Assembly: GCA_035577785.1 (NCBI GenBank)
Contig: DATLUZ010000019.1
Coordinates: 1,498-65,497, forward strand
Source of the DNA: Burkholderiales bacterium
GTDB lineage: Bacteria > Pseudomonadota > Gammaproteobacteria > Burkholderiales > SG8-39
Reading direction: 5' to 3'
DNA: 64,000 bases
The translations under genes were made by a program, and so were the position numbers. This document shows positions 12,323 through 22,166 of this stretch, piece by piece (the first letter of the stretch is position 1; each line of letters begins with the position of its first letter). The notes under the pieces were generated by a model. The model did no database searches. It saw only the letters and a list, made by a program, of their open reading frames with translations, and was not told where the DNA came from.

Positions 12323-14416
<2,094 letters not shown>

Positions 14417-14438
14417 CTCCCCCTAGCATAATCCAACC

Positions 14439-14459
14439 GGGACGATCCGGGCTCGTCCC
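14439..14459 (-). terminator. possible hairpin terminator downstream of the small lipoprotein gene
   Basis: GGGACGA-N7-TCGTCCC, a 7-bp stem. The tail on the minus strand (GGTTGGATTAT) is only moderately T-rich. Confidence 0.3.
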
Positions 14460-14517
14460 GGTACGCGCGCCGCAAGCCGTCTACTGAATCCCCGGAACGG
14501 CCAGGCCCGCCCCCTGC

Positions 14518-14721
14518 TCAGAACGCGTCCGGCTGTTCTTCGATGCGGGTCGCCTGATTGATGTGCTGCGCCGGGACGTAGAAGTTTTCGAGGGCCGGCG
14601 TGGGCGTTTGGACGACGGGAAGCGAGGCGTCCGACTGGTATGGCCGCGGCGAGCACGCCGTGACGGAGAGGATGCCCAGGACCAGAATCGCTGCGGGGAT
14701 GGCCAGTTTGATGTTGCGCAT
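14518..14721 (-). CDS. 67-aa lipoprotein with conserved C-terminal tail (tail protein 1)
   Basis: AGGAGA Shine-Dalgarno sequence 7 nt upstream. Signal peptide plus lipobox (ILSVTAC). The tail LENFYVPAQHINQATRIEEQPDAF is repeated in the protein at 20241-20765. Confidence 0.7.
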   Translation of the reverse strand: MRNIKLAIPAAILVLGILSVTACSPRPYQSDASLPVVQTPTPALENFYVPAQHINQATRIEEQPDAF

Positions 14722-14811
14722 GTCGGTCTCCTGTTTTGTGGGTTCGGGTTAACGCGAGGCCAGTATCGCGACCTCTCCCGACGCGATCAGCGCCGCGTTA
14801 CACTGGCTTTT

Positions 14812-14826
14812 TGTGCCGTAATCACA
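14812..14826. promoter_or_regulatory. CRP-type palindrome A: TGTGC-CGTAA-TCACA (extended arms TTTTGTG-N7-CACAAAA, 14809-14829)
   Basis: Lies in the divergent region between tail protein 1 and CRP paralog 1. Same 15-bp architecture as the sites at 15489, 19923 and 20846. Confidence 0.6.
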
Positions 14827-14843
14827 AAATCGCGTCCTGACGC

Positions 14844-15485
14844 ATGCCTCCGGACCAGGCTCCGTTCGCGCATCTCGACGAGCAGGCACTGCGCGGCCTT
14901 GCCCCGGGGGGCGCGGTCAGGTCGTACCCGCGCAACGTCGTGGTGGTGAGCGAAGGCGACCCGACCGACTCGCTGTACGTGGTGTTGTCGGGACGGGTGA
15001 AGGTCTTCGTCGCCGACGAGAACGGCAGGGAGCTCGTCGTCAATACCATCGGCACGGGCGACTACTTCGGCGAGCTGGTGCTGGACGGCCAGGCGCGCGC
15101 GGCTTCCGTCATGACGCTCGAGGCGTCGCGTTTTTTCGTGATTCCGCAGCGCGACGCCGACGCGCTGCTCTCCGGCAACCCTCAGTTCGCGCGGCACCTG
15201 GTGCGCAAGCTCATCGGCAAGGTGCGCTCTCTCACCGAGCAGGTGCGCAACCTCGCGCTGAGGGACGTCTATGCCCGCTTGGTGCGCTTCCTCGAGGAGC
15301 AGGCCGTGGAGGACGGCGGCAGGCGCATTGTGCGCGAGCGCCTCACGCAGGCCGACATCGCTGCGCGGATCGGCGGCTCGCGGGAAATGGTGAGCCGCAT
15401 CCTGAGCGACCTTTCCGCGGGCGGTTACATCCGCGTCGAGGCCAAGCAGATCGTGCTGCTGCGCAAGCTGCCGGCGCACTGGTGA
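14844..15485 (+). CDS. Crp/Fnr-family cyclic-nucleotide-binding transcription factor (CRP paralog 1)
   Basis: cNMP beta-roll (GDYFGELVLDGQARAASV) and C-terminal HTH with CRP-type recognition helix GGSREMVSRIL. No FNR Cys cluster. Confidence 0.85.
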   Translation: MPPDQAPFAHLDEQALRGLAPGGAVRSYPRNVVVVSEGDPTDSLYVVLSGRVKVFVADENGRELVVNTIGTGDYFGELVLDGQARAASVMTLEASRFFVIPQRDADALLSGNPQFARHLVRKLIGKVRSLTEQVRNLALRDVYARLVRFLEEQAVEDGGRRIVRERLTQADIAARIGGSREMVSRILSDLSAGGYIRVEAKQIVLLRKLPAHW

Positions 15486-15488
15486 CGG

Positions 15489-15503
15489 TGTGCATGCGTC
15501 ACA
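15489..15503. promoter_or_regulatory. CRP-type palindrome B: TGTGC-ATGCG-TCACA
   Basis: Starts 4 nt after the CRP1 stop, within a block of about 50 nt conserved with 19921-19970. TAGGGT lies 52 nt downstream of the site centre. The micro-ORF ATG is 89 nt downstream. Confidence 0.6.
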
Positions 15504-15584
15504 GAACTGGCGTGCCGCAGGGCGTCGAGGCCGCGCGCGCCGAGGGCTAGGGTAGCTCCGTCAACTGAACGGAGGAGGTGGCGG

Positions 15585-15770
15585 ATGGATACCCTGGTCG
15601 ATGCGCTCACAATAGCAATGGCGCTTCTGTGCGTGGTCTTTATCGGGTACGGCGCCTGGCTATGCCTGCCGCCGCTTCAGCGTAAGCGGCCCGCCGAGGC
15701 GTCTGCACCCACCTCCGTCAGGAAGCGCGTCCGGTCCATATCGGAGAGGCTTTCGGCAAGCAGCAGGTAG
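15585..15770 (+). CDS. 61-aa single-TM micro-protein (TM unit 1)
   Basis: GGAGGAGG Shine-Dalgarno sequence before the ATG. MDTLVDALTIAMALLCVVFIGYGAWLCL is paralogous to 20035-20166 and to an internal helix of 20241-20765. The 3' 94 nt run antisense into the kinase gene. Confidence 0.5.
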   Translation: MDTLVDALTIAMALLCVVFIGYGAWLCLPPLQRKRPAEASAPTSVRKRVRSISERLSASSR

Positions 15771-17116
15771 AACCGCTCCGACGAGGTCGTCTGGGCGGCC
15801 GCCTTCTTGACCAGGATCTTGGCGATCGGCCCGATGTACGTGGCAAGCCGGCGCTGCGCCGCCTCGATCCGCTCCGCGGTGAGCGCGGCGTCGGTCGGGA
15901 TGCCGGGACGCGGGCCGGTGCCGGAGGCGCGCGGGCCGGTGCCTGACGCGGCGCGCGGCGCGCCGCTGAGCGCGCCGCGCGTCGCCATGAACGCCTTGCG
16001 CTGCTCCTCCGTGTCGAGCTCGCGCGCCATCGTGGCGTAAAGCTCGTCGACGTCGAGCGTACGCCGGCCCGCGCGGCGGACCATCACCTTCGCGACCGGC
16101 CCGACAAAGCGCGCGAGCTGGGTTTCGATCTGCTTGAGGAGCGCGGGGTCCCAGCCCGGCGGCGGCGCGGTGCTGCGTCCCGCGGTCGGCGTGGCGGGGT
16201 TGGAGCCGCTGCCTGGATTGGTGGGCTCGATCTTCGCGGCACGCGGAGCCTCGGAAATGATGGTTTCCTCGGAGAGCGTCGCGCTGACGGGCGCAGCGTG
16301 CGCGTCGAGCAGCGCGCCGAGGAACGCGTTCGCGCTCTCGAAGCGTTCGACCGGCTTCTTGGCGATGGCGCGGGCGATGACGGCGTCGTAGGCGGGCGGG
16401 ACCGGTGGATCGCGGCGCACCTGCGAAGGGGGCAGCGGATTGTCGTGGCAGACCTTGTACGCGGCGGCCTCCACCGAGCCGGCGAAGGGCTTGACGCCGG
16501 TGAGCAGCTCGTACATCACGACGCCGGCGGAGAAGACGTCGGCGCGCCAGTCGATCGTCCCGCCGGTGTAGTGCTCCGGCGCCATGTAGCCCGGCGTGCC
16601 GATGACGAAGCCGGTCTGGGTGAGGTTCGACGAGTCGATCCGCGCGATGCCGAAGTCCGCGATCTTGAGCTTGCCGTTGCGCATCACGATGAGGTTGGCG
16701 GGCTTGATGTCGCGGTGCCAGACGCCCTGCTCGTGCGCGTAGCTGAGCGCTTCGAGAAGCTGGGTCATCGTCGACACGGCGTCGCTCTCCCCGAAGCGCG
16801 TGCCGCGGGCGAAGTATTCGCGCAGGCTGTTGCCCTGGATGAACTCCATCGCAATGTAGGCGAGCCCGTTCTCCTCGCCGTATTCGTGGACCCCGACGAT
16901 GCCTGGGTGCGTGAGGCGCCCGGCCGCCTGCGCCTCGTTCCTGAAGCGCGCGAGCAGGGCCTGGGTGGTGTCCTCCTCGGTCCCGTCCAGGCGGATGGTC
17001 TTGATCGCGACGGTGCGGCGGATGTTGGGGTCGAAGGCCTTGTAGACGACGCCCATGGCGCCGCGGCCGACCACCTCGGTGATCTGGTACTTGCCGATCC
17101 GTTCGATCTGCGCCAT
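15677..17116 (-). CDS. Hanks-type Ser/Thr protein kinase, no TM segment, two tandem C-terminal repeats
   Basis: GRGAMGVVYKA, VAIK, HRDIKPANL, DFGIA and GTPGYMAPE. After a Pro-rich linker there are two units of about 55 aa sharing LAxx[VI]GP[VI]AK[VI][ML]V[RK][RK]A. Confidence 0.9.
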   Translation of the reverse strand: MAQIERIGKYQITEVVGRGAMGVVYKAFDPNIRRTVAIKTIRLDGTEEDTTQALLARFRNEAQAAGRLTHPGIVGVHEYGEENGLAYIAMEFIQGNSLREYFARGTRFGESDAVSTMTQLLEALSYAHEQGVWHRDIKPANLIVMRNGKLKIADFGIARIDSSNLTQTGFVIGTPGYMAPEHYTGGTIDWRADVFSAGVVMYELLTGVKPFAGSVEAAAYKVCHDNPLPPSQVRRDPPVPPAYDAVIARAIAKKPVERFESANAFLGALLDAHAAPVSATLSEETIISEAPRAAKIEPTNPGSGSNPATPTAGRSTAPPPGWDPALLKQIETQLARFVGPVAKVMVRRAGRRTLDVDELYATMARELDTEEQRKAFMATRGALSGAPRAASGTGPRASGTGPRPGIPTDAALTAERIEAAQRRLATYIGPIAKILVKKAAAQTTSSERFYLLLAESLSDMDRTRFLTEVGADASAGRLR

Positions 17117-17123
17117 CCGCGGG

Positions 17124-18023
17124 CTACTCTTCGAGCATCTTCATCGCCTGAGCGACGCTTTTCTTCATGCGGTTGAAGGAGTCGGCGAGCGTGCGGATCT
17201 CGTCCCGGGAGCGCAGATGGAAGTCGGGGACGTCCATGTTGCCCATGCTGACCTGGTCGGCGAGCTTCGCCAGCCGGGACACCGGCATGATGACCATCGA
17301 AAGGAGCATCGCATTGAGGACAATGCCGACGAAGAGGAAGACGCCGGCGAGCGACAGCATGAACGTGCGGAAGACGGTGCGTGCGCGCTGCGTCGGAACT
17401 TCGGTCGGCACCGACACCACCTGCGCACCGATGATTTCGTTCATCTTCCAGCCGAAGCCGTTCGCCGGCCCGTACCGGTCGATCAGCGTCTTCGGCGCGG
17501 CGTCGACGGTGCTGTGGCAGGTCAGGCAGGCGCCGTCGCGTATCTGGATCGGCCTGGCAATGTACAGCAGGCGCCCGGCGGGGGTGTCGCGCTCGCCGAT
17601 GATCTCGGTGCTCTCGGCATTGTTGCGAAACTGGTTGACCACGTCGGTCTCCCAGTCCACCGCGCGGTTGCGCGGATTCGTCGGGTTGAGCGTCGCCTCC
17701 TTGTAGGCGTACTCCGGAAACTTCTTGCGCAGGCCGTTGAAGACTTCGGCGGCGGAGTAGGCAGGCACCGACTGCGGCAGGAAGCCGTATTTCATCTGGG
17801 TCTGGAGCAGGGGGCCGACCTGGCTCGACGTGTAGCTGCGCGTGGCGAGCGCCGCTTCCATGATCAGCCGCGCGCTGTGCTGCATTTCCTCGCGTGCGTT
17901 TTGCTGCAGTAATGCTTCCGCCACGTAGGCCGCGATGCCTAGGCCGAGCAGGAAGACGGCGACGAACACCAGATTGAACTTGACGATCAGTCTCATTTGA
18001 GCTCCAACGTTGCGCTCATTCAT
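17124..18023 (-). CDS. membrane sensor: periplasmic DUF3365 (Tll0287-like, CxxCH heme-c) domain + HAMP, no output domain
   Basis: TM1, then a periplasmic domain of about 190 aa with ACLTCH, then TM2, then HAMP (PVSRLAKLADQVSMGN...IRTLADSFNRM), then the stop. It ends 7 nt before the kinase start. An alternative start exists at 17996. Confidence 0.75.
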   Translation of the reverse strand: MNERNVGAQMRLIVKFNLVFVAVFLLGLGIAAYVAEALLQQNAREEMQHSARLIMEAALATRSYTSSQVGPLLQTQMKYGFLPQSVPAYSAAEVFNGLRKKFPEYAYKEATLNPTNPRNRAVDWETDVVNQFRNNAESTEIIGERDTPAGRLLYIARPIQIRDGACLTCHSTVDAAPKTLIDRYGPANGFGWKMNEIIGAQVVSVPTEVPTQRARTVFRTFMLSLAGVFLFVGIVLNAMLLSMVIMPVSRLAKLADQVSMGNMDVPDFHLRSRDEIRTLADSFNRMKKSVAQAMKMLEE

Positions 18024-18948
18024 TCGGCCTTGCGGGCGTCGCCTCGGCTGCAGTCGGCGGTGCTTTTGCCGCGTCCACCAAGGGCGGGGGCTTGGGCAGG
18101 TGCTTCTCCGGGAAGAGGATCGGGTCCCATTCGGGATGGAACCGCAGGTTGGCGATAAGCGCCTTGCGAAACTCGGGGTCCTGCGCCCGGGCGCGCATGC
18201 GCTGCATCAGCGGGCGACGCAGCTCCGGCGGGCCTTTCAGCCAAGGCTCGACCTCCTCGTAGGTGAGGTCTCCGAGCCGACGCGGCGACACGTCCCGGTC
18301 CTTGAACGCGGCCAGCCGCTCGGGCAGGTTGTCGCGGTAGTAAGGTGGCATGGCCGCAACAAAGGCCGGCGCCGGACGCGGCTGGAGGACGCCCCTCTGG
18401 TCGGCCCGGCGCATATAAAACTGGCCCGCGCCGACCGCGACCGGACTGGCCGGAGTCGCCCGAACGAAGCCCTCGGCGAGCCGCAGGGCGCCGCTCTCGA
18501 CGAACAGGCTGGCTTCAGCGCTCTCGACGTGCAGCACGAGCACCCCGTCGGCGCTGCCGAAGCCGAAGAGCGGCGTGGTGACGCGCAGCGGCGCCGCCTT
18601 CGGGGCGAGAGCGAGCTTGGTCCAGCCCTGCAGCAGGTAAAAGTCCGAGACCGCCGCCGCCTTGGCGCCTCGGCCGGTGGCGCCGGCGAGCGCGGCCACG
18701 TGGAACCGACTCCGCGGCCCGAGGCTCACCCGCGCGCCATCGGCGAACGCGATCTGAACCAGCCCCTTGTCCGGCACCTCGACGATGTCGCCGACGTGCA
18801 TGCGCACGCCTTCGGCCAAAGCGAACCGGCCGGTAGCGCGCAGCAGAGCGGCGGGCCCCTCCACCAGCGTGACAACCGGTGGCGCTTCGGCGCCCATCGC
18901 GAGCATAGGAACCACCAGGCAAGCCGCCGCAAATGCCCCCGCAAGCAT
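18016..18948 (-). CDS. periplasmic FecR-domain protein
   Basis: Start at MLAGAF (18948) gives a signal peptide; the ORF extends to 19005. FecR-like pattern VTLVEGPAALLRATGRFALAEGVRMHVGDIVEVPDKGLVQIAFADGARVSL. 8-nt overlap with the next gene. Confidence 0.7.
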   Translation of the reverse strand: MLAGAFAAACLVVPMLAMGAEAPPVVTLVEGPAALLRATGRFALAEGVRMHVGDIVEVPDKGLVQIAFADGARVSLGPRSRFHVAALAGATGRGAKAAAVSDFYLLQGWTKLALAPKAAPLRVTTPLFGFGSADGVLVLHVESAEASLFVESGALRLAEGFVRATPASPVAVGAGQFYMRRADQRGVLQPRPAPAFVAAMPPYYRDNLPERLAAFKDRDVSPRRLGDLTYEEVEPWLKGPPELRRPLMQRMRARAQDPEFRKALIANLRFHPEWDPILFPEKHLPKPPPLVDAAKAPPTAAEATPARPNE

Positions 18949-19022
18949 TGAGCTCGGCGCCCTTTCTAGAATTCCGGGCGATACTATTCCGCGCGATCCA
19001 TTCACGTCAATTTGTCAGCGCC

Positions 19023-19904
19023 ATGTCAGAGCCGTTTTCCTGCGCGGTACTGTTTGCCGATATCAGCGGTAGCACTCGGCTGTACGAGGAGCTCGGAGAC
19101 GCCCAGGCGCTCTCCCGGATCGACCGCTGCCTGCGCCTTCTGCGCGATGCCGCCTTGGAATTCGACGGACGCGTAGTTAAGACGACGGGTGATGGCGTCA
19201 TGTGCTCCTTCGAGCAGGCAGAGTCCGCGCTGCAGGCGGCGCGGTTCATGCAGACGCGGCTGGCCGAGCAGGCGGCGCTCGGCGGCCCGTCCCTCGCCAT
19301 CCACGTTGGCTGCCATTACGGATCGGTGCTCGAGAACGGCGGCGACCTCTACGGCGACTGTGTGAACGTCGCCGTGCGCGTGGTCGGCCTGGCCAAGCCG
19401 GGTCAGGTCATAGCGACCCAGGAGGTGGTCGGCAGGATCGGCGAGAGCCTGCGAGGCAGGGTCCGCGTGCTCGACCACGTGGCCCTGAAGGGAAAGCGCG
19501 AGCCGCTGCAGATCTACGAGCTTTCGTGGCAGGATTCCGAGGAGCTGACCACCGTGGGTACCCGCCTGCAGGAGGCGCCGTCCCGCCTCAAGCTGGTGTT
19601 CGGAAGCCGGGAGATGTGGTTCGACGCGGCCGGGGGGAACGACCTCAGGCTTGGGCGCGACGCGGCGTGCGACATCGTGATCGTGGACCGCCGGGTGTCG
19701 CGGCAGCATGCCCGCATCGAGAAGCGCCGCGACAAGTTCATGCTCATCGACCAGAGCGCTAACGGAACCTACGTTGCCGTGAACGGGGAGTCCGAGATCT
19801 GCCTGCGGCGCGAAGAGCTGGTTCTGCGCGCGAGCGGACGCATCTGCATCGGCCACCGCACCGGCGACGCCGACGCTATCGTGGTGGAGTTCTATTGCCT
19901 GTAA
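19023..19904 (+). CDS. class III adenylate/guanylate cyclase fused to a C-terminal FHA domain
   Basis: Cyclase motifs: VLFADISGST and VKTTGDG (metal Asp residues, Lys), GDLYGDCVNVAVR (Asp, Asn, Arg). FHA motifs: LRLGRD...VSRQHARI...IDQSANGTYVNG-type. Confidence 0.85.
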   Translation: MSEPFSCAVLFADISGSTRLYEELGDAQALSRIDRCLRLLRDAALEFDGRVVKTTGDGVMCSFEQAESALQAARFMQTRLAEQAALGGPSLAIHVGCHYGSVLENGGDLYGDCVNVAVRVVGLAKPGQVIATQEVVGRIGESLRGRVRVLDHVALKGKREPLQIYELSWQDSEELTTVGTRLQEAPSRLKLVFGSREMWFDAAGGNDLRLGRDAACDIVIVDRRVSRQHARIEKRRDKFMLIDQSANGTYVAVNGESEICLRREELVLRASGRICIGHRTGDADAIVVEFYCL

Positions 19905-19922
19905 TACGCGCACCTGCCGGGG

Positions 19923-19937
19923 TGTGCATACGGCACA
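19923..19937. promoter_or_regulatory. CRP-type palindrome C: TGTGC-ATACG-GCACA
   Basis: Perfect 5-bp arms, 19 nt after the cyclase stop. TAAAGT lies 52 nt downstream of the centre, the same spacing as at site B. Confidence 0.6.
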
Positions 19938-20034
19938 GAACCGCAGTGCCTTGCGGCGTCGAGGTCCGCCCCGGTCGGACCTAAAGTGGTCTGCGACGGG
20001 CGGCACCCGCCCCCGCAGCCACCGAGGAGGTTCC

Positions 20035-20166
20035 ATGGACGCACTGGTGCTCGACATCGCTGTTCGTATCCTGTCCGGACTCTGCATGGCCCTGCTTATC
20101 TGGGGCGGATGGCTTTCCATCCGCGGCACCCCGCGCTGGACGGCCGGCGCCACGGTCCAGAGCTGA
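20035..20166 (+). CDS. 43-aa single-TM micro-protein (TM unit 2)
   Basis: GAGGAGG Shine-Dalgarno sequence before ATG 20035. MDALVLDIAVRILSGLCMALLIWGGWLSI is paralogous to 15585-15770. The upstream part of the listed 80-aa ORF is Arg-rich and unlikely to be coding. Confidence 0.55.
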   Translation: MDALVLDIAVRILSGLCMALLIWGGWLSIRGTPRWTAGATVQS

Positions 20167-20240
20167 GGCTCTCCCCCTACTTTCCCCGCCGCCTGGCAAG
20201 ACCCTGGGCCGGGCCGAGCGCCCGCAGAAACCGCCGGCGC

Positions 20241-20765
20241 TCAGAACGCATCCGGCTGTTCCTCGACGCGCGTCGCCTGGTTGGCGTGCTGTGCCGGGAC
20301 GTAGAACTTCTCCAGCGCCGGCGCCGTCGGCGCGGGATTCTCGCTCTGCGTCACCTGCTCGCGGCTCGGCTGGTGCGCGAAAGTCGCGCCCAGGACCGCG
20401 CCGAGCGACACGAGCGCCACGGCCGCGGCCGCGAGCGCGATGCCACGCTTCAAGCTCCAGAATTGACTGGCTGCGGTTCCCTGACCGATGCCGTGACGAT
20501 GTTTGCCGATTCTCATGACGACCTCCTGTAGCGTGCGAACGACGACGAGATACGCCCCGTACGCGAGAAGCGCAGCGGAGCAGATTTCCAGGACACGGAC
20601 CGCGAGGTCCAGCAATTCGGGCAGCCATTCCGTGGTGCTCGCGGCCATCTGCTGGAGCGCGATCCCGCTCCCGTCGGCAAAGACCTCGGCGCGAGCGTGC
20701 GAGCACGGCATCAGGGCCGCGGCGAGCGCGCCGCGGCTCAATCGCAGGACTTGGATGCGGTTCAT
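20241..20765 (-). CDS. 174-aa membrane protein: TM-unit-like helix fused to tail protein (tail protein 2)
   Basis: Start MNRIQV at 20765 with a GGAAGG Shine-Dalgarno sequence. The internal helix LLDLAVRVLEICSAALLAYGAYL matches the micro-proteins. A second TM follows, then the tail LEKFYVPAQHANQATRVEEQPDAF. Confidence 0.65.
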   Translation of the reverse strand: MNRIQVLRLSRGALAAALMPCSHARAEVFADGSGIALQQMAASTTEWLPELLDLAVRVLEICSAALLAYGAYLVVVRTLQEVVMRIGKHRHGIGQGTAASQFWSLKRGIALAAAAVALVSLGAVLGATFAHQPSREQVTQSENPAPTAPALEKFYVPAQHANQATRVEEQPDAF

Positions 20766-20845
20766 GTGGGCCCCTTCCGTGAAACTCTCGGGCCCAGTGT
20801 GCGCAAGCCGGGCGTCCGGTTCAGCGTCGCGTCGCACCCGATTCA

Positions 20846-20860
20846 TGTGAACTAATCACA
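20846..20860. promoter_or_regulatory. CRP-type palindrome D: TGTGA-ACTAA-TCACA
   Basis: Lies in the divergent region between tail protein 2 and CRP paralog 2. Its half-sites match the canonical CRP half-sites. Confidence 0.6.
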
Positions 20861-20919
20861 CAGCCGGGCGTTGCTTGCGCACGCTCCGGACCGGTACCAG
20901 AATGTCCGAAGAGGGGTAG

Positions 20920-21573
20920 ATGCAGGCATCGAAGCCGAAAGAGCCGTCGCCCTGCGACGTCCTGAGCGACGCCGAGCTCAAGGCGCTGTCCGAGCGCGCG
21001 ATCATGCGCGCGTTCGCGAAGAACACGGTGATCGTGAGCGAGGGCGACCGGGCCGATTCGCTCTACATCGTCCTTTCCGGCCGTGTCCGGGCCTACGTGA
21101 GCGACGACCAGGGCAAGGAGATGTTCCTCAGCGAGGCGGGCAAGGGCGAGTATTTCGGCGAAATGGCGCTCGACGAGGGGCCGCGCTCGGCCTCCGTGAT
21201 CACGCTCGAGCCGACCCGGCTTCTGGTCGTGCCGAAAGACGATTTCGCGGCCTTCCTCGCGAAGAGCCCCGAGTTCGCGCTGCACCTCGTGCGCAAGCTG
21301 ATCCGCCGGGTGCGCGCGCTCACCCACGACGTCAAGAGCCTGGCGCTCATGGACGTCTACGGCCGCGTGGCGCGCATGCTCCTCGATCTCGCCGTCGAGC
21401 GCGACGGCGCGCTCGTGATCGAGGACCGGCCGACGCAGCAGGAAATGGCGAACCGGGTCGGCGCTTCGCGCGAGATGATCAGCCGGATCCTCACCGAGCT
21501 GGCCGCCGGCGGCTACATCGAGGTCGCCCGGGACCGCATCACCATCTCCCGCACTTTGCCGTGCGGCTGGTGA
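20920..21573 (+). CDS. Crp/Fnr-family cyclic-nucleotide-binding transcription factor (CRP paralog 2)
   Basis: GEYFGEMALDEGPRSASV (canonical Glu...Arg-Ser cNMP contacts) and recognition helix GASREMISRIL. Clear paralog of 14844-15485. Confidence 0.85.
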   Translation: MQASKPKEPSPCDVLSDAELKALSERAIMRAFAKNTVIVSEGDRADSLYIVLSGRVRAYVSDDQGKEMFLSEAGKGEYFGEMALDEGPRSASVITLEPTRLLVVPKDDFAAFLAKSPEFALHLVRKLIRRVRALTHDVKSLALMDVYGRVARMLLDLAVERDGALVIEDRPTQQEMANRVGASREMISRILTELAAGGYIEVARDRITISRTLPCGW

Positions 21574-21590
21574 AGCTAAGATAGCCGGGC

Positions 21591-22166
21591 GTGCGTCTGT
21601 TCATCAAAAACAGGACCTTCGGGGGAGAAGGCCCGGCCGGGGGGAAGCTCAACCTCCGGCTGTCCGGTTTCGCCGCGCAGCAGATCGTCCCGGTTGACGA
21701 CATCGTGCGGGCCATCGACCGGCTTCCGGATTTTCATCTCGAGGGTCTGCGCGAGATCGCCTATCTGCCCGAATACGCCCCGGACGTGCGCGCCTACCCC
21801 GCCTACCCGCGCTGTGCGCCGCAGGGCGAGTTCGTTCAGTCGGAGAGGCGCATTTTCGTCTACGGGTTCGACCGTCCCGCGATGTTCTTCCATATGCTGC
21901 ATCACGAGATCGGCCATTTCGTGTTCTTTCTGGTGCTCGGCAGCCGCATGAAGAAGCAGTGGGTCACGCAGCTCTTCCCGGAGTCCACTTGCGTGACGGC
22001 GTACGCCGGCAGGAATCCCTGGGAGGACTTCGCGGAGAGCTACGCTTACTACGTGCTCCAGCCTCGGCTTCTCGAGAGGAAGCTGCCCGAAAAGCACGCC
22101 TTCATGCGCGAGTGCGTCTTCTCCGGAGAGGCGTGGGCGCTCAAGGAAAGCGATCGCCTGGGATAA
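21591..22166 (+). CDS. HExxH metallopeptidase-like protein (MtfA/M90-like motif arrangement)
   Basis: GTG start 17 nt after the CRP2 stop. MLHHEIGHFVF plus a downstream NPWEDFAESYAYY. No signal peptide. Confidence 0.5.
   Translation: MRLFIKNRTFGGEGPAGGKLNLRLSGFAAQQIVPVDDIVRAIDRLPDFHLEGLREIAYLPEYAPDVRAYPAYPRCAPQGEFVQSERRIFVYGFDRPAMFFHMLHHEIGHFVFFLVLGSRMKKQWVTQLFPESTCVTAYAGRNPWEDFAESYAYYVLQPRLLERKLPEKHAFMRECVFSGEAWALKESDRLG

What the first reader, a model, noticed from the sequence alone, without database searches (positions are those of the whole stretch)
14518..14721. Near-identical 24-aa C-terminal tail on two otherwise unrelated small envelope proteins
The 67-aa lipoprotein ends LENFYVPAQHINQATRIEEQPDAF. 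The 174-aa membrane protein at 20241-20765 ends LEKFYVPAQHANQATRVEEQPDAF (21/24 identical). Their N-terminal parts align only as generic hydrophobic anchors. Over the last 83 nt I count 71 identities. Eight of the 12 differences are synonymous third-position changes, so the peptide sequence itself looks to be under purifying selection rather than freshly copied. Predicted topology puts both tails in the periplasm, behind Pro-rich linkers, and both end in a free aromatic residue. That arrangement fits a tethered or released peptide ligand for a periplasmic receptor. The FecR domain and the heme domain encoded next door are obvious candidates, but this link is inference.
Basis: partly seen in the sequence, partly recalled or inferred. 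Interest (0 to 1): 0.7.

Follow-up and report, generated by a model that had tools for sequence, protein, structure and literature searches.

The report
Conserved peptide tail on small envelope proteins
Two small envelope proteins share a near-identical 24-residue tail because both belong to an undescribed family of membrane-anchored proteins whose only conserved part is a short peptide at the very C-terminus, and both genes sit behind CRP-type operator sites in a cAMP signalling locus.

Summary
The similarity is not fresh copying. Codon identity at the shared residues (14/21) matches what codon bias alone predicts (13.1±2.1), and tail dN/dS is 0.05–0.2.

The two proteins are not unrelated. 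Profile searches found about 110 clusters of 63–154-aa proteins built the same way: one membrane anchor, a variable linker of about 20 aa, then a fixed 23-mer ending the protein (consensus EFVYFPSQYVNQATEvEEHIQAF). The family has no Pfam, NCBIfam, PDB or literature match.

The "174-aa" protein is probably a 91-aa family member starting at M84. That start has a perfect AGGAGG, and it is the start used by a relative. The upstream part includes the remnant of a neighbouring gene.

TGTG-N7-CACA palindromes occur four times in the 64 kb (0.28 expected). All four lie in this locus, each 88–105 nt upstream of a small membrane-protein ORF: the two tail genes and two others. Positions are conserved in relatives. 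A distant locus with CRP and a CHASE2 cyclase has the same arrangement.

Best reading: a CRP-controlled, membrane-tethered periplasmic peptide motif that binds a partner. The partner is unidentified, and the FecR/heme-domain idea is untested.

The parts
14518..14721 (-). Gene A: 67-aa family member with a lipoprotein signal peptide (lipobox SVTAC), a Pro-rich linker and the tail
   Evidence: ORF and translation. SD AGGAGA lies 6 nt before the ATG. 12 orthologue clusters were found.
14521..14592 (-). Tail of A (last 24 codons, LENFYVPAQHINQATRIEEQPDAF)
   Evidence: Pooled dN/dS is 0.09 in the type-1 clade, against 0.61-0.66 for the signal peptide and linker.
20241..20765 (-). It is a composite of a D-gene remnant, TM1 and the family member.
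20241..20516 (-). B core: 91-aa family member starting at M84 (MRIGKHRHG...). It has an N-terminal cytoplasmic segment, one TM helix, a linker and the tail.
   Evidence: It matches the ~90-aa family architecture. The collection holds the window's own product as the 91-aa P0070. Its start is homologous to the start of B-short in L031.
20522..20527 (-). Shine-Dalgarno AGGAGG, 5 nt upstream of the M84 ATG
   Evidence: Read from the sequence.
20244..20315 (-). Tail of B (last 24 codons, LEKFYVPAQHANQATRVEEQPDAF)
   Evidence: Pooled dN/dS is 0.12-0.14.
20658..20765 (-). First ~36 codons of long ORF B. They are orthologous, together with the promoter region, to the 5' end of gene D (a 222-231-aa secreted protein present in L005 and L031 and absent here). 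They evolve neutrally.
   Evidence: Protein z=14-18. blastn gives 77% over 249 nt to the L005 D 5' region. dN/dS is 0.97 for codons 1-45.
14812..14826 (.). CRP-like palindrome TGTGCCGTAATCACA between A and CRP1, centred 98 nt upstream of the A ATG
   Evidence: It is conserved at 96-100 nt in L001, L002, L005, L007, L009, L010 and L013.
15489..15503 (.). CRP-like palindrome TGTGCATGCGTCACA, 89 nt upstream of small ORF E
19923..19937 (.). CRP-like palindrome TGTGCATACGGCACA, 105 nt upstream of small ORF C
20846..20860 (.). CRP-like palindrome TGTGAACTAATCACA between B and CRP2, 88 nt upstream of the long-ORF ATG
   Evidence: It is conserved, with at most 1 mismatch, in L005, L008, L016 and L018.
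14844..15485 (+). CRP1, a CRP/FNR-family regulator (cNMP-binding + HTH_Crp_2; recognition helix SREMVSR), divergent from A
20920..21573 (+). CRP2, a paralogous CRP-family regulator (48% identical to CRP1), divergent from B
15585..15770 (+). Small ORF E (61 aa, one TM helix, basic C-terminus). It has its own palindrome and SD GGAGGAGG. Its 3' third overlaps the STK gene in antisense.
   Evidence: It is called as a gene in L032.
20035..20166 (+). Small ORF C (43 aa, one TM helix) with its own palindrome and SD GAGGAGG. It resembles TM1 of long ORF B.
   Evidence: It is a called gene in L002-L005 and L031. C vs B TM1 gives z=5.9.
15677..17116 (-). Ser/Thr protein kinase (Pkinase, with a DUF8082-type C-terminus in relatives)
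17124..18023 (-). Membrane sensor: Tll0287-like (DUF3365) periplasmic domain with CLTCH (CxxCH), plus HAMP, with no output domain
   Evidence: The motif is read from the translation.
18016..19005 (-). FecR-like periplasmic protein (weak PF04773 hit, below the cut-off)
   Evidence: It is the fastest-evolving protein of the locus.
18933..19904 (+). Class III nucleotide cyclase fused to an FHA domain
21591..22166 (+). 191-aa HHEIGH (HExxH) zincin-like protein that travels with the CRP2-(D)-B module

Best explanation
A and the C-terminal 91 residues of 'B' are paralogous members of an undescribed family of small envelope proteins. Each member has a membrane anchor (a bitopic N-in/C-out helix, or in A a lipoprotein signal peptide), a fast-evolving linker of about 20 residues, and an invariantly C-terminal 23-residue peptide. 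The family consensus is EFVYFP(S/A/G)QYVNQATExEEHIQAF and the local variant is E-x-FYVPAQH-x-NQATR-x-EEQPDAF. Only the peptide is under strong selection. It is displayed in the periplasm as an unstructured short linear motif with a free aromatic C-terminus. In this locus both genes, and two further small membrane-protein ORFs (C and E), are transcribed from promoters carrying a conserved TGTG-N7-CACA palindrome. The likely chain, all inferred, is: envelope signal, then FecR-like and heme-Cache/HAMP sensor with the Ser/Thr kinase, then the FHA-cyclase, then cAMP, then CRP1/CRP2, then these small proteins. The tethered tail most likely acts by binding a periplasmic protein, either as feedback on the sensor or as the envelope output of the pathway. 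This would work like small membrane-protein regulators such as MgrB. Shown here: family membership, selection pattern, topology signature, operator-like sites and their conservation, and the composite nature of B. Inferred: CRP binding, the signalling order, and binding of the tail to a partner. Unknown: the partner.
For: Family: a profile search of 1.84e9 representatives gave 34 hits. A profile search of 5.8e9 proteins gave 113 clusters, all small proteins of 63-154 aa. Of 143 sequences, 135 end exactly 23 residues after the motif start. Y4, P6 and N11 are invariant in the independent alignment A4, and the last residue is F in 129 and Y in 14. Selection: tail dN/dS is 0.09-0.14 pooled, against 0.5-1.0 for the anchors and linkers. 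For A vs B tails, dN is 0.04-0.10 while dS is 0.5-2.2. Identical codons number 14/21, against 13.1±2.1 expected from codon usage. Topology: K+R density is 0.116 at the N-terminus against 0.043 in the linker, and A has a lipobox. Structure: AF2 predicts only the TM helix, with the tail as coil at pLDDT about 70. Regulation: 4 TGTG-N7-CACA sites occur in 64 kb against 0.28 expected, and 0/100 shuffles reach 4. All four lie in the locus, 88-105 nt upstream of ORFs A, E, C and B. The distances are the same in the relatives examined, among L001-L017. Both CRPs keep the R-E-x-x-x-R recognition helix. In the distant locus L024 (CRP, CHASE2-cyclase, FecR-like), the only such site in 18 kb lies 121 nt upstream of the family member. 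B core: SD AGGAGG precedes M84, the start is homologous to that of B-short in L031, and P0070 is a 91-aa call.
Against: No binding partner was identified. No periplasmic domain is shared by all locus types: the FecR-like and Tll0287 proteins are absent from the five LuxR-RR/hybrid-HK loci. The palindrome has 7, not 8, bases between TGTG and CACA, so it is one bp shorter than the E. coli CRP consensus, and binding by CRP1/2 is assumed. No sigma-70 consensus promoter was found near the sites. The family is known only from metagenomes and MAGs, so expression is unproven. The monomer AF2 model cannot show binding. The tail's C-terminal half differs sharply between close lineages (type 1 against type 2), which needs an extra assumption of partner co-evolution or tail replacement.
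Confidence: 0.5

Rival explanations
1. The shared tail is merely the trace of a recent partial duplication or gene conversion between two neighbouring genes and has no function of its own.
For: The two genes are 5.5 kb apart, and similarity begins abruptly 83 nt before the stop. The anchor of window A is close to that of L001 A (dN 0.06) while the tails differ (dN 0.57), so a tail replacement did occur at some time.
Against: Synonymous sites are randomised: 14/21 identical codons against 13.1±2.1 expected, and dS between A and B tails is 0.5-2.2. The same 23-mer is conserved in about 110 clusters with unrelated anchors. The tail is the most constrained part of both gene families. A and B tails from one genome are no closer at synonymous sites than tails from different genomes.
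Confidence: 0.04
2. The tail is a C-terminal recognition tag for a housekeeping periplasmic protein that reads free C-termini, such as a PDZ-domain protease of the Prc/CtpA or DegS/DegP type. Recognition would trigger regulated proteolysis of the anchor or activate the protease. The conserved partner would then be encoded elsewhere, not in the locus.
For: The motif is always at a fixed distance from the free C-terminus (135/143), and the last residue is always aromatic. The motif is far more conserved than any neighbouring sensor and occurs in unrelated regulatory contexts. This fits a universal partner better than a locus-specific one. Typical members have a conserved cytoplasmic N-terminal motif (M-x-I-S-K/R-Q-x-L-S-V-I-P-G) that could be released.
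Against: Position -3 is Q/D/E, not the aromatic residue of the OMP-type YxF signal. A has no cytoplasmic part to release. No protease gene is linked: the linked HExxH protein has no signal peptide. Nothing here tests binding.
Confidence: 0.15
3. The tail is the core of a ribosomally made, post-translationally modified peptide or cofactor precursor, or a signal peptide that is cleaved off and released.
For: A B12-type radical SAM gene lies two genes away in at least four loci: L026, L027, L028 and L030. Aromatic, Asn and Gln positions are invariant. In relatives without the lipobox Cys, the A-type precursor could be cleaved by signal peptidase I and become soluble.
Against: There is no radical SAM or other maturase in the window locus, in L001-L005, L031 or L024. 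The radical SAM gene is on the other strand, with the kinase and regulator. A Sec/TM-anchored, exported precursor is atypical for cytoplasmic maturases. No transporter or peptidase with a signal peptide is linked.
Confidence: 0.1
4. The ORFs are not expressed, and the conservation reflects a DNA or RNA element such as a terminator, sRNA or operator.
For: The ORFs are small, all relatives are uncultured, and the GC-rich genome produces many spurious ORFs.
Against: The pattern of change is codon-periodic, with 8/12 differences at synonymous third positions, and dN/dS is far below 1. There are strong SD sequences. Rfam gives no match in 14000-22000. Conservation holds at the protein level across nucleotide-diverged relatives.
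Confidence: 0.02

Closest known systems
MgrB, a 47-aa PhoP-regulated membrane peptide that inhibits the sensor kinase PhoQ (PMC2789325, PMC8404706)
   Same: It is a small bitopic membrane protein with a short periplasmic C-terminal region that matters for function. Its gene is controlled by the transcription factor of the pathway it acts on, giving a feedback logic.
   Different: There is no sequence relationship: no Pfam or NCBIfam hit. The pathway here is Ser/Thr kinase, cyclase and CRP rather than a two-component system. The conserved element is a 23-mer fixed to the C-terminus, and the anchor is interchangeable (TM helix or lipoprotein). Interaction with any sensor is not shown.
cAMP/Clr regulon of Sinorhizobium meliloti, in which CHASE2-type cyclases and a CRP-like regulator control a target gene of unknown function, smc02178 (PMC5498481, abstract only)
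   Same: Local class III cyclases and a CRP-family regulator drive a small set of nearby target genes of unknown function.
   Different: The operator is different (TGTG-N7-CACA here). No homology between targets was tested. The comparison rests on that paper's abstract only.
OMP C-terminal signals (terminal Phe; YxF peptides that activate DegS). This comparison is from general knowledge.
   Same: There is an invariant aromatic last residue with a free carboxylate, located in the periplasm.
   Different: There is no aromatic residue at -3 and no alternating hydrophobic beta-signal pattern. The carriers are small anchored peptides, not beta-barrels.
Heme-c Cache (DUF3365/Tll0287) sensors, proposed NO or redox sensors (bioRxiv 10.64898/2026.02.01.703092)
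   Same: The neighbouring gene 17124-18023 has this domain with CxxCH, fused to HAMP. This is the 'signalling' subclass described there.
   Different: This describes the neighbour, not the tail family. The paper's abstract and outline do not mention small tail proteins.

Membership tests
New tail family (defined here: anchor + linker + C-terminal 23-mer) | C-terminal motif x-x-x-Y-[FV]-P-x-Q-x-x-N-Q-... ending in F/Y exactly 23 residues after the motif start | tested here: met
   Both A and B fit. 135/143 family sequences have the same length to the C-terminus. Profile E-values reach 1e-28.
New tail family (defined here: anchor + linker + C-terminal 23-mer) | A single hydrophobic anchor N-terminal to the motif, and a small size (63-154 aa) | tested here: met
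   A has a lipoprotein signal peptide, and B core (91 aa) has one TM helix (AF2 helix 16-47). The long 174-aa reading of B does not fit, but its upstream part is a gene remnant.
Any curated protein family (Pfam-A, NCBIfam) | A hit above the curated cut-off | tested here: not met
   There are no hits for A or B at E<=0.01 and none for six distant members (P0113, P0072, P0076, P0082, P0066, P0068) at E<=0.1 to 1 above cut-off.
MgrB-type feedback small membrane proteins | Sequence homology to MgrB | tested here: not met
   No Pfam hit.
MgrB-type feedback small membrane proteins | The gene belongs to the regulon of the pathway's transcription factor | tested here: inconclusive
   Conserved CRP-like palindromes lie at fixed distance upstream. 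Binding and regulation were not demonstrated.
MgrB-type feedback small membrane proteins | Binds and modulates the sensor in the membrane or periplasm | not testable with these tools
Bacterial lipoproteins | Lipobox [LVI][ASTVI][GAS]C at the end of a signal peptide | tested here: met
   A has LSVTA-C. It is not a family trait: L007, P0036-38, P0040, P0073 and L031 A have F in place of C.
RiPP precursor peptides | A maturase gene (radical SAM, YcaO, lanthionine synthetase and so on) in the same cluster | tested here: not met
   There is none among the 9 neighbours in the window or in L001-L005, L024 and L031. A B12-type radical SAM gene is nearby only in the LuxR/HK context.
OMP-type C-terminal signal (DegS-activating YxF / BAM beta-signal) | Aromatic residue at the last position and at -3 | tested here: not met
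   The last residue is F/Y in 143/143, but -3 is Q/D/E/P.
E. coli-type CRP operator | TGTGA-N6-TCACA (8 bases between TGTG and CACA) | tested here: not met
   The half-sites are present but the spacing is 7 in all sites here and in relatives. It is treated as a CRP-family-like operator of unknown cognate regulator.

The most novel reading that the evidence does not exclude
The 23-residue C-terminal peptide defines a new class of membrane-tethered periplasmic ligands. These would be small proteins whose interchangeable anchors (inner-membrane helix, lipoprotein, possibly cleaved soluble form) present one conserved peptide with a free aromatic C-terminus to a periplasmic receptor. Their synthesis would be set by local cAMP-CRP or two-component modules, giving a peptide-mediated feedback or output layer for envelope signalling. 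The specificity-determining C-terminal half would be exchanged between paralogues (type 1 against type 2 tails).
Probability: 0.3. Interest if true: 0.75.

Novelty: new variant of a known kind. Interest (0 to 1): 0.6.

Why it matters
Small membrane proteins are an under-annotated layer of bacterial signalling, and few families are defined by a conserved extracytoplasmic peptide rather than by their transmembrane helix. This report defines a family with a sharp, testable motif: 23 residues with a free aromatic C-terminus. It offers a plausible regulatory input, four conserved operator-like sites in a locus with a Ser/Thr kinase, an FHA-cyclase and two CRPs. It also offers natural experiments: anchor swaps, two tail types, and a fused against a stand-alone form. 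If the tail binds a sensor or a periplasmic protease, it would link cAMP signalling to envelope sensing in Betaproteobacteria. It would also give a peptide handle for finding the receptor. The report further corrects a likely mis-annotation (174 aa against 91 aa) and adds two unannotated small ORFs to the same putative regulon.

Tried and rejected
1. Whole-length homology of A to the C-terminal 69 aa of B beyond the tail is not significant (z=1.4). It is supported only by shared architecture and the family profile.
2. Recent copying or gene conversion as the cause of the nucleotide similarity was rejected. Codon identity equals the codon-usage expectation, and there is no same-genome clustering of dS.
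3. I considered general concerted evolution of A and B tails within genomes, from P0073/P0075 and P0037/P0124. L031 carries a type-2 A tail and a type-1 B tail in one genome, and L032 shows no adjacent B. Only a lineage-specific replacement or co-evolution can be claimed.
4. The ~105-130-aa TM 'partner' gene found downstream of distant members has no homologue in the window or in the close relatives L001, L005, L008 and L013 (hmmsearch, best E=0.41).
5. TM1 of long ORF B as a copy of ORF C or E is supported at the protein level (z=5.9) but has no nucleotide similarity. It is kept only as a resemblance.
6. Rfam, a PDB sequence search, a literature search for the motif and for CHASE2+FecR+CHAT, and a sigma-70 and terminator scan gave nothing useful.
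7. No conserved palindrome was found upstream of members in the LuxR/HK context.
8. The two DNA-pattern scans required FYVPAQH-x-N-[QK]. They therefore recovered only the local variant: 3 Burkholderiales MAG species, 12 metagenome contigs and one chance hit. The wider family came from the profile searches.

Full report
**1. The observation**

ORF A (14518-14721, minus strand, 67 aa) and ORF B (20241-20765, minus strand, 174 aa) exist as described.
- Their last 24 residues are 21/24 identical and their last 83 nt are 71 identical.
- The 12 nucleotide differences are 8 synonymous third-position changes and 4 changes in 3 non-synonymous codons.
- Upstream of that point the nucleotide identity drops to background, 19/67.
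- Without the tails, A's anchor and linker do not align significantly with B (z=1.4).
- The motif occurs nowhere else in the six frames of the window.

**2. Selection, not recent copying**

Across orthologues recovered from metagenomes and MAGs, the tail is the most constrained part of both genes.
- In the A family, pooled dN/dS is 0.09 for the tail, against 0.61 for the signal peptide and 0.66 for the linker.
- In the B family, it is 0.12-0.14 for the tail, against 0.5-0.6 for the loop and TM2 and about 1 for the first 45 codons.
- Between A and B tails, dN is 0.04-0.10 while dS is 0.5-2.2.
- Among the 21 identical residues, 14 use the same codon. The genome's codon usage alone predicts 13.1±2.1.

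Synonymous sites therefore carry no residual signal of a shared copy. The nucleotide similarity is explained by the conserved peptide plus codon bias.

**3. The two proteins belong to one family**

A profile made from A orthologues and the C-terminal 69 aa of B was run against 1.84 billion representative proteins. It returned 34 hits. An alignment of those hits, run against 5.8 billion proteins, returned 113 clusters.

All are small proteins (63-154 aa) with the same build:
- an optional cytoplasmic N-terminus, often M-x-I-S-K/R-Q-x-L-S-V-I-P-G;
- one hydrophobic anchor;
- a variable Pro/Ala-rich linker, median 20 residues;
- a 23-residue motif that ends the protein.

In 135 of 143 sequences the motif is exactly 23 residues from its start to the C-terminus. 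The consensus is E-F-V-Y-F-P-(S/A/G)-Q-Y-V-N-Q-A-T-E-x-E-E-H-I-Q-A-F. Y, P and N are invariant in the independent alignment. The last residue is F in 129 sequences and Y in 14.

K+R density is 0.116 before the anchor and 0.043 after it. By the positive-inside rule this puts the tail outside the cytoplasm. AlphaFold2 with a 34-sequence alignment predicts only the TM helix (residues 16-47). It leaves the tail without secondary structure at pLDDT about 70. This is the behaviour of a short linear motif that folds on a partner.

Neither Pfam nor NCBIfam has a model for these proteins. The PDB sequence search gives nothing relevant, and no indexed paper contains the motif strings.

**4. B is probably a 91-aa protein**

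Residues 84-174 of B (MRIGKHRHGIGQG...) match the standard ~90-aa family architecture. Stand-alone 90-aa proteins such as P0035 and P0069 start at the equivalent Met.
- A perfect AGGAGG lies 5 nt upstream of that ATG (20522-20527).
- The start region is homologous to the start of the 68-aa 'B-short' gene of L031, where it overlaps the stop of the preceding gene D.
- The protein collection holds the window's own product as the 91-aa P0070.
- The promoter region and first ~36 codons of the long ORF are orthologous to the 5' end of D. D is a 222-231-aa secreted protein present in L005 and L031 and absent from the window (protein z=14-18; blastn 77% over 249 nt).
- Codons 1-45 evolve at dN/dS=0.97. 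In other relatives the N-terminus is truncated, interrupted or replaced.

The long ORF is therefore best read as a decaying D remnant, then a TM segment of unclear origin, read through into a complete family member. The TM segment resembles small ORF C at the protein level (z=5.9) but not at the DNA level.

A is a family member that has no cytoplasmic N-terminus. Its anchor carries a lipobox (SVTAC). Several close relatives have Phe in place of the Cys (L007, L031, P0036-38, P0040, P0073). Lipidation is therefore a local feature and not essential to the family.

**5. Regulatory setting**

A is divergent from CRP1 and B from CRP2. The two regulators are 48% identical, and both have a cNMP-binding domain and the R-E-x-x-x-R recognition helix. 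Between them lie four genes:
- a Ser/Thr kinase;
- a Tll0287/DUF3365-HAMP membrane protein with a CxxCH motif;
- a FecR-like periplasmic protein;
- a class III cyclase fused to FHA.

The pattern TGTG-N7-CACA occurs four times in the 64-kb window against 0.28 expected (0/100 shuffles reach 4). All four sites lie in this 6-kb locus, and each is 88-105 nt upstream of the ATG of a small membrane-protein ORF:
- A, at 98 nt;
- E (15585-15770, 61 aa), at 89 nt;
- C (20035-20166, 43 aa), at 105 nt;
- B, at 88 nt.

The A and B sites share TGTGNNNTAATCACA (0.06 expected). Sites and distances are conserved in the relatives examined, among L001-L017. In L005, where D is intact, the 'B' site serves the D-B operon. 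All four ORFs have strong Shine-Dalgarno sequences.

In the distant locus L024 the only such palindrome in 18 kb lies 121 nt upstream of the family member. That locus encodes CHAT-TPR, CRP, a family member, a 129-aa TM protein, a CHASE2-cyclase, a FecR-like protein and TpsB/TpsA.

The spacing is one base shorter than the E. coli CRP consensus. Assigning the sites to CRP1/CRP2 is an inference from position, half-site sequence and co-occurrence.

Other members sit in a different context: a hybrid histidine kinase, a B12-type radical SAM gene and a LuxR-type response regulator, divergent from the member and a ~105-aa TM protein (L025-L028, L030 and one contig without DNA). The family is thus associated with envelope-signalling loci in general, not only with CRP, kinase and cyclase.

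**6. Evolution in this clade**

Lineages nearest to the window (locus proteins 80-97% identical) differ in content.
- L001-L004 have A, CRP1, kinase, sensor, FecR-like, cyclase and C, but no CRP2, D, B or HExxH module.
- L005 and the window have that module beyond the cyclase.
- L031 and one further contig have it between A and fadB.

The module is therefore mobile within the locus. A's anchor is nearly the same in the window and in L001 (dN 0.06), yet the tails differ strongly (dN 0.57). Window A's tail is close to B's (dN 0.07). In L031, A carries a type-2 tail (...NAAAADEKPVEEYF) and B a type-1 tail (...NRATKIEEQPDSF).

In the window lineage the C-terminal half of A's tail was therefore either replaced from B long ago or driven to the same sequence. 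Anchor type and tail type are also mixed elsewhere (P0073, P0124, P0126). The data do not distinguish old recombination from co-evolution with a shared partner.

**7. Mechanism**

Shown: a family of anchored proteins in which selection acts on a 23-mer fixed to the extracytoplasmic C-terminus, and conserved operator-like sites in front of both genes and two other small ORFs.

Inferred: CRP1/CRP2 control these genes in response to cAMP from the FHA-cyclase. The cyclase would be controlled by the kinase and the periplasmic sensors. The tail would act by binding a periplasmic protein.

The closest functional analogy is MgrB and PhoQ (PMC2789325, PMC8404706). There is no homology, and no interaction has been shown. 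The fixed distance to a free aromatic C-terminus, together with the motif's conservation across unrelated regulatory contexts, also fits a housekeeping partner that reads C-termini, such as a PDZ protease (rival, 0.15). A RiPP or cofactor-precursor reading has only the radical SAM neighbour in one context in its favour (0.1).

They remain possible but untested, and they are absent from most other family loci.

**8. Verdict**

The finding is real and the selection argument is correct. What is new is an undescribed small-protein family defined by a C-terminal periplasmic peptide. Alongside it come a putative four-gene small-protein regulon of a cAMP-CRP module, and a re-annotation of B. The function remains to be shown.

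Noticed in passing
window 14812-14826, 15489-15503, 19923-19937, 20846-20860: All four TGTG-N7-CACA palindromes of the 64-kb window (0.28 expected) lie in this locus. Each is 88-105 nt upstream of a small membrane-protein ORF. Positions are conserved in relatives, and a further GTG[CT] lies 12 nt downstream of each site.
   Followed up: yes
window 15585-15770 (+): Unannotated small ORF E (61 aa: acidic N-terminus, one TM helix, basic Ser/Thr-rich C-terminus). It has SD GGAGGAGG and its own palindrome. Its last ~31 codons overlap the 3' end of the convergent Ser/Thr kinase gene in antisense. It is conserved in all relatives and called as a gene in L032. dN/dS of the non-overlapping part is 0.36-0.98. 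Its cytoplasmic tail could be a kinase or FHA target (speculation).
   Followed up: partly
window 20035-20166 (+): Small ORF C (43 aa, one TM helix) lies just downstream of the cyclase-FHA gene, with SD GAGGAGG and its own palindrome. It is a called gene in L002-L005 and L031. It is similar to ORF E (z=5.7) and to TM1 of long ORF B (z=5.9).
   Followed up: partly
window 20658-20900 (-); L005 3179-3847; L031 7933-8628: Gene D (a 222-231-aa secreted protein with no Pfam hit) is present between CRP2 and B in relatives and translationally coupled to B in L031. It is deleted in the window. Only its promoter and first ~36 codons remain, fused in frame to B.
   Followed up: yes
window 21591-22166 (+): A 191-aa protein with HHEIGH (HExxH) and no signal peptide has only weak Peptidase_Mx and anthrax-LF-like hits, below cut-off. 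It stays with the CRP2-(D)-B module in the window, L005 and L031 although its position and orientation change.
   Followed up: partly
window 17124-18023 (-): The Tll0287/DUF3365-HAMP protein has CLTCH (CxxCH) and no output domain. The family was recently described as heme-c Cache sensors, with a signalling representative acting as an NO sensor (bioRxiv 10.64898/2026.02.01.703092). Its gene overlaps the FecR-like gene by 8 nt (18016-18023), which suggests one operon with the kinase.
   Followed up: partly
window 18016-19005 (-): The FecR-like protein is the fastest-evolving protein of the locus. It is 80-83% identical to relatives, including L005, where the other locus proteins compared are 93-98% identical.
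   Followed up: partly
window 12323-14721 (-): Gene A lies about 100 nt upstream of, and on the same strand as, a fadB-like (enoyl-CoA hydratase/3-hydroxyacyl-CoA dehydrogenase) and thiolase pair in the window and the near relatives whose contigs reach that far (L001-L005, L032). No terminator-like site was found between them, so read-through into beta-oxidation genes is possible.
   Followed up: no
L024 9296-9685; L025 9409-9735; L026 9319-9651 and 9678-10049; L027 4036-4344; L028 8315-8629: In distant loci the tail gene is followed by a 102-129-aa single-TM protein family (N-terminal ERRKL-like helix, TM with LKCIA, periplasmic E-x-RKVFDERRR-x-YES) with no Pfam hit. It has no homologue in the window. 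It is a candidate cis-encoded partner of the tail in those loci.
   Followed up: partly
L025-L028, L030: Distant members lie beside a conserved block on the other strand (rhodanese, DUF2064, GT2, DUF547, DedA-fused pyridine-nucleotide disulfide oxidoreductase, methyltransferase, DUF3641 radical SAM) and near TauE and FCSD genes. This neighbourhood looks sulfur- or selenium-related. Its relevance to the tail family is unknown.
   Followed up: no
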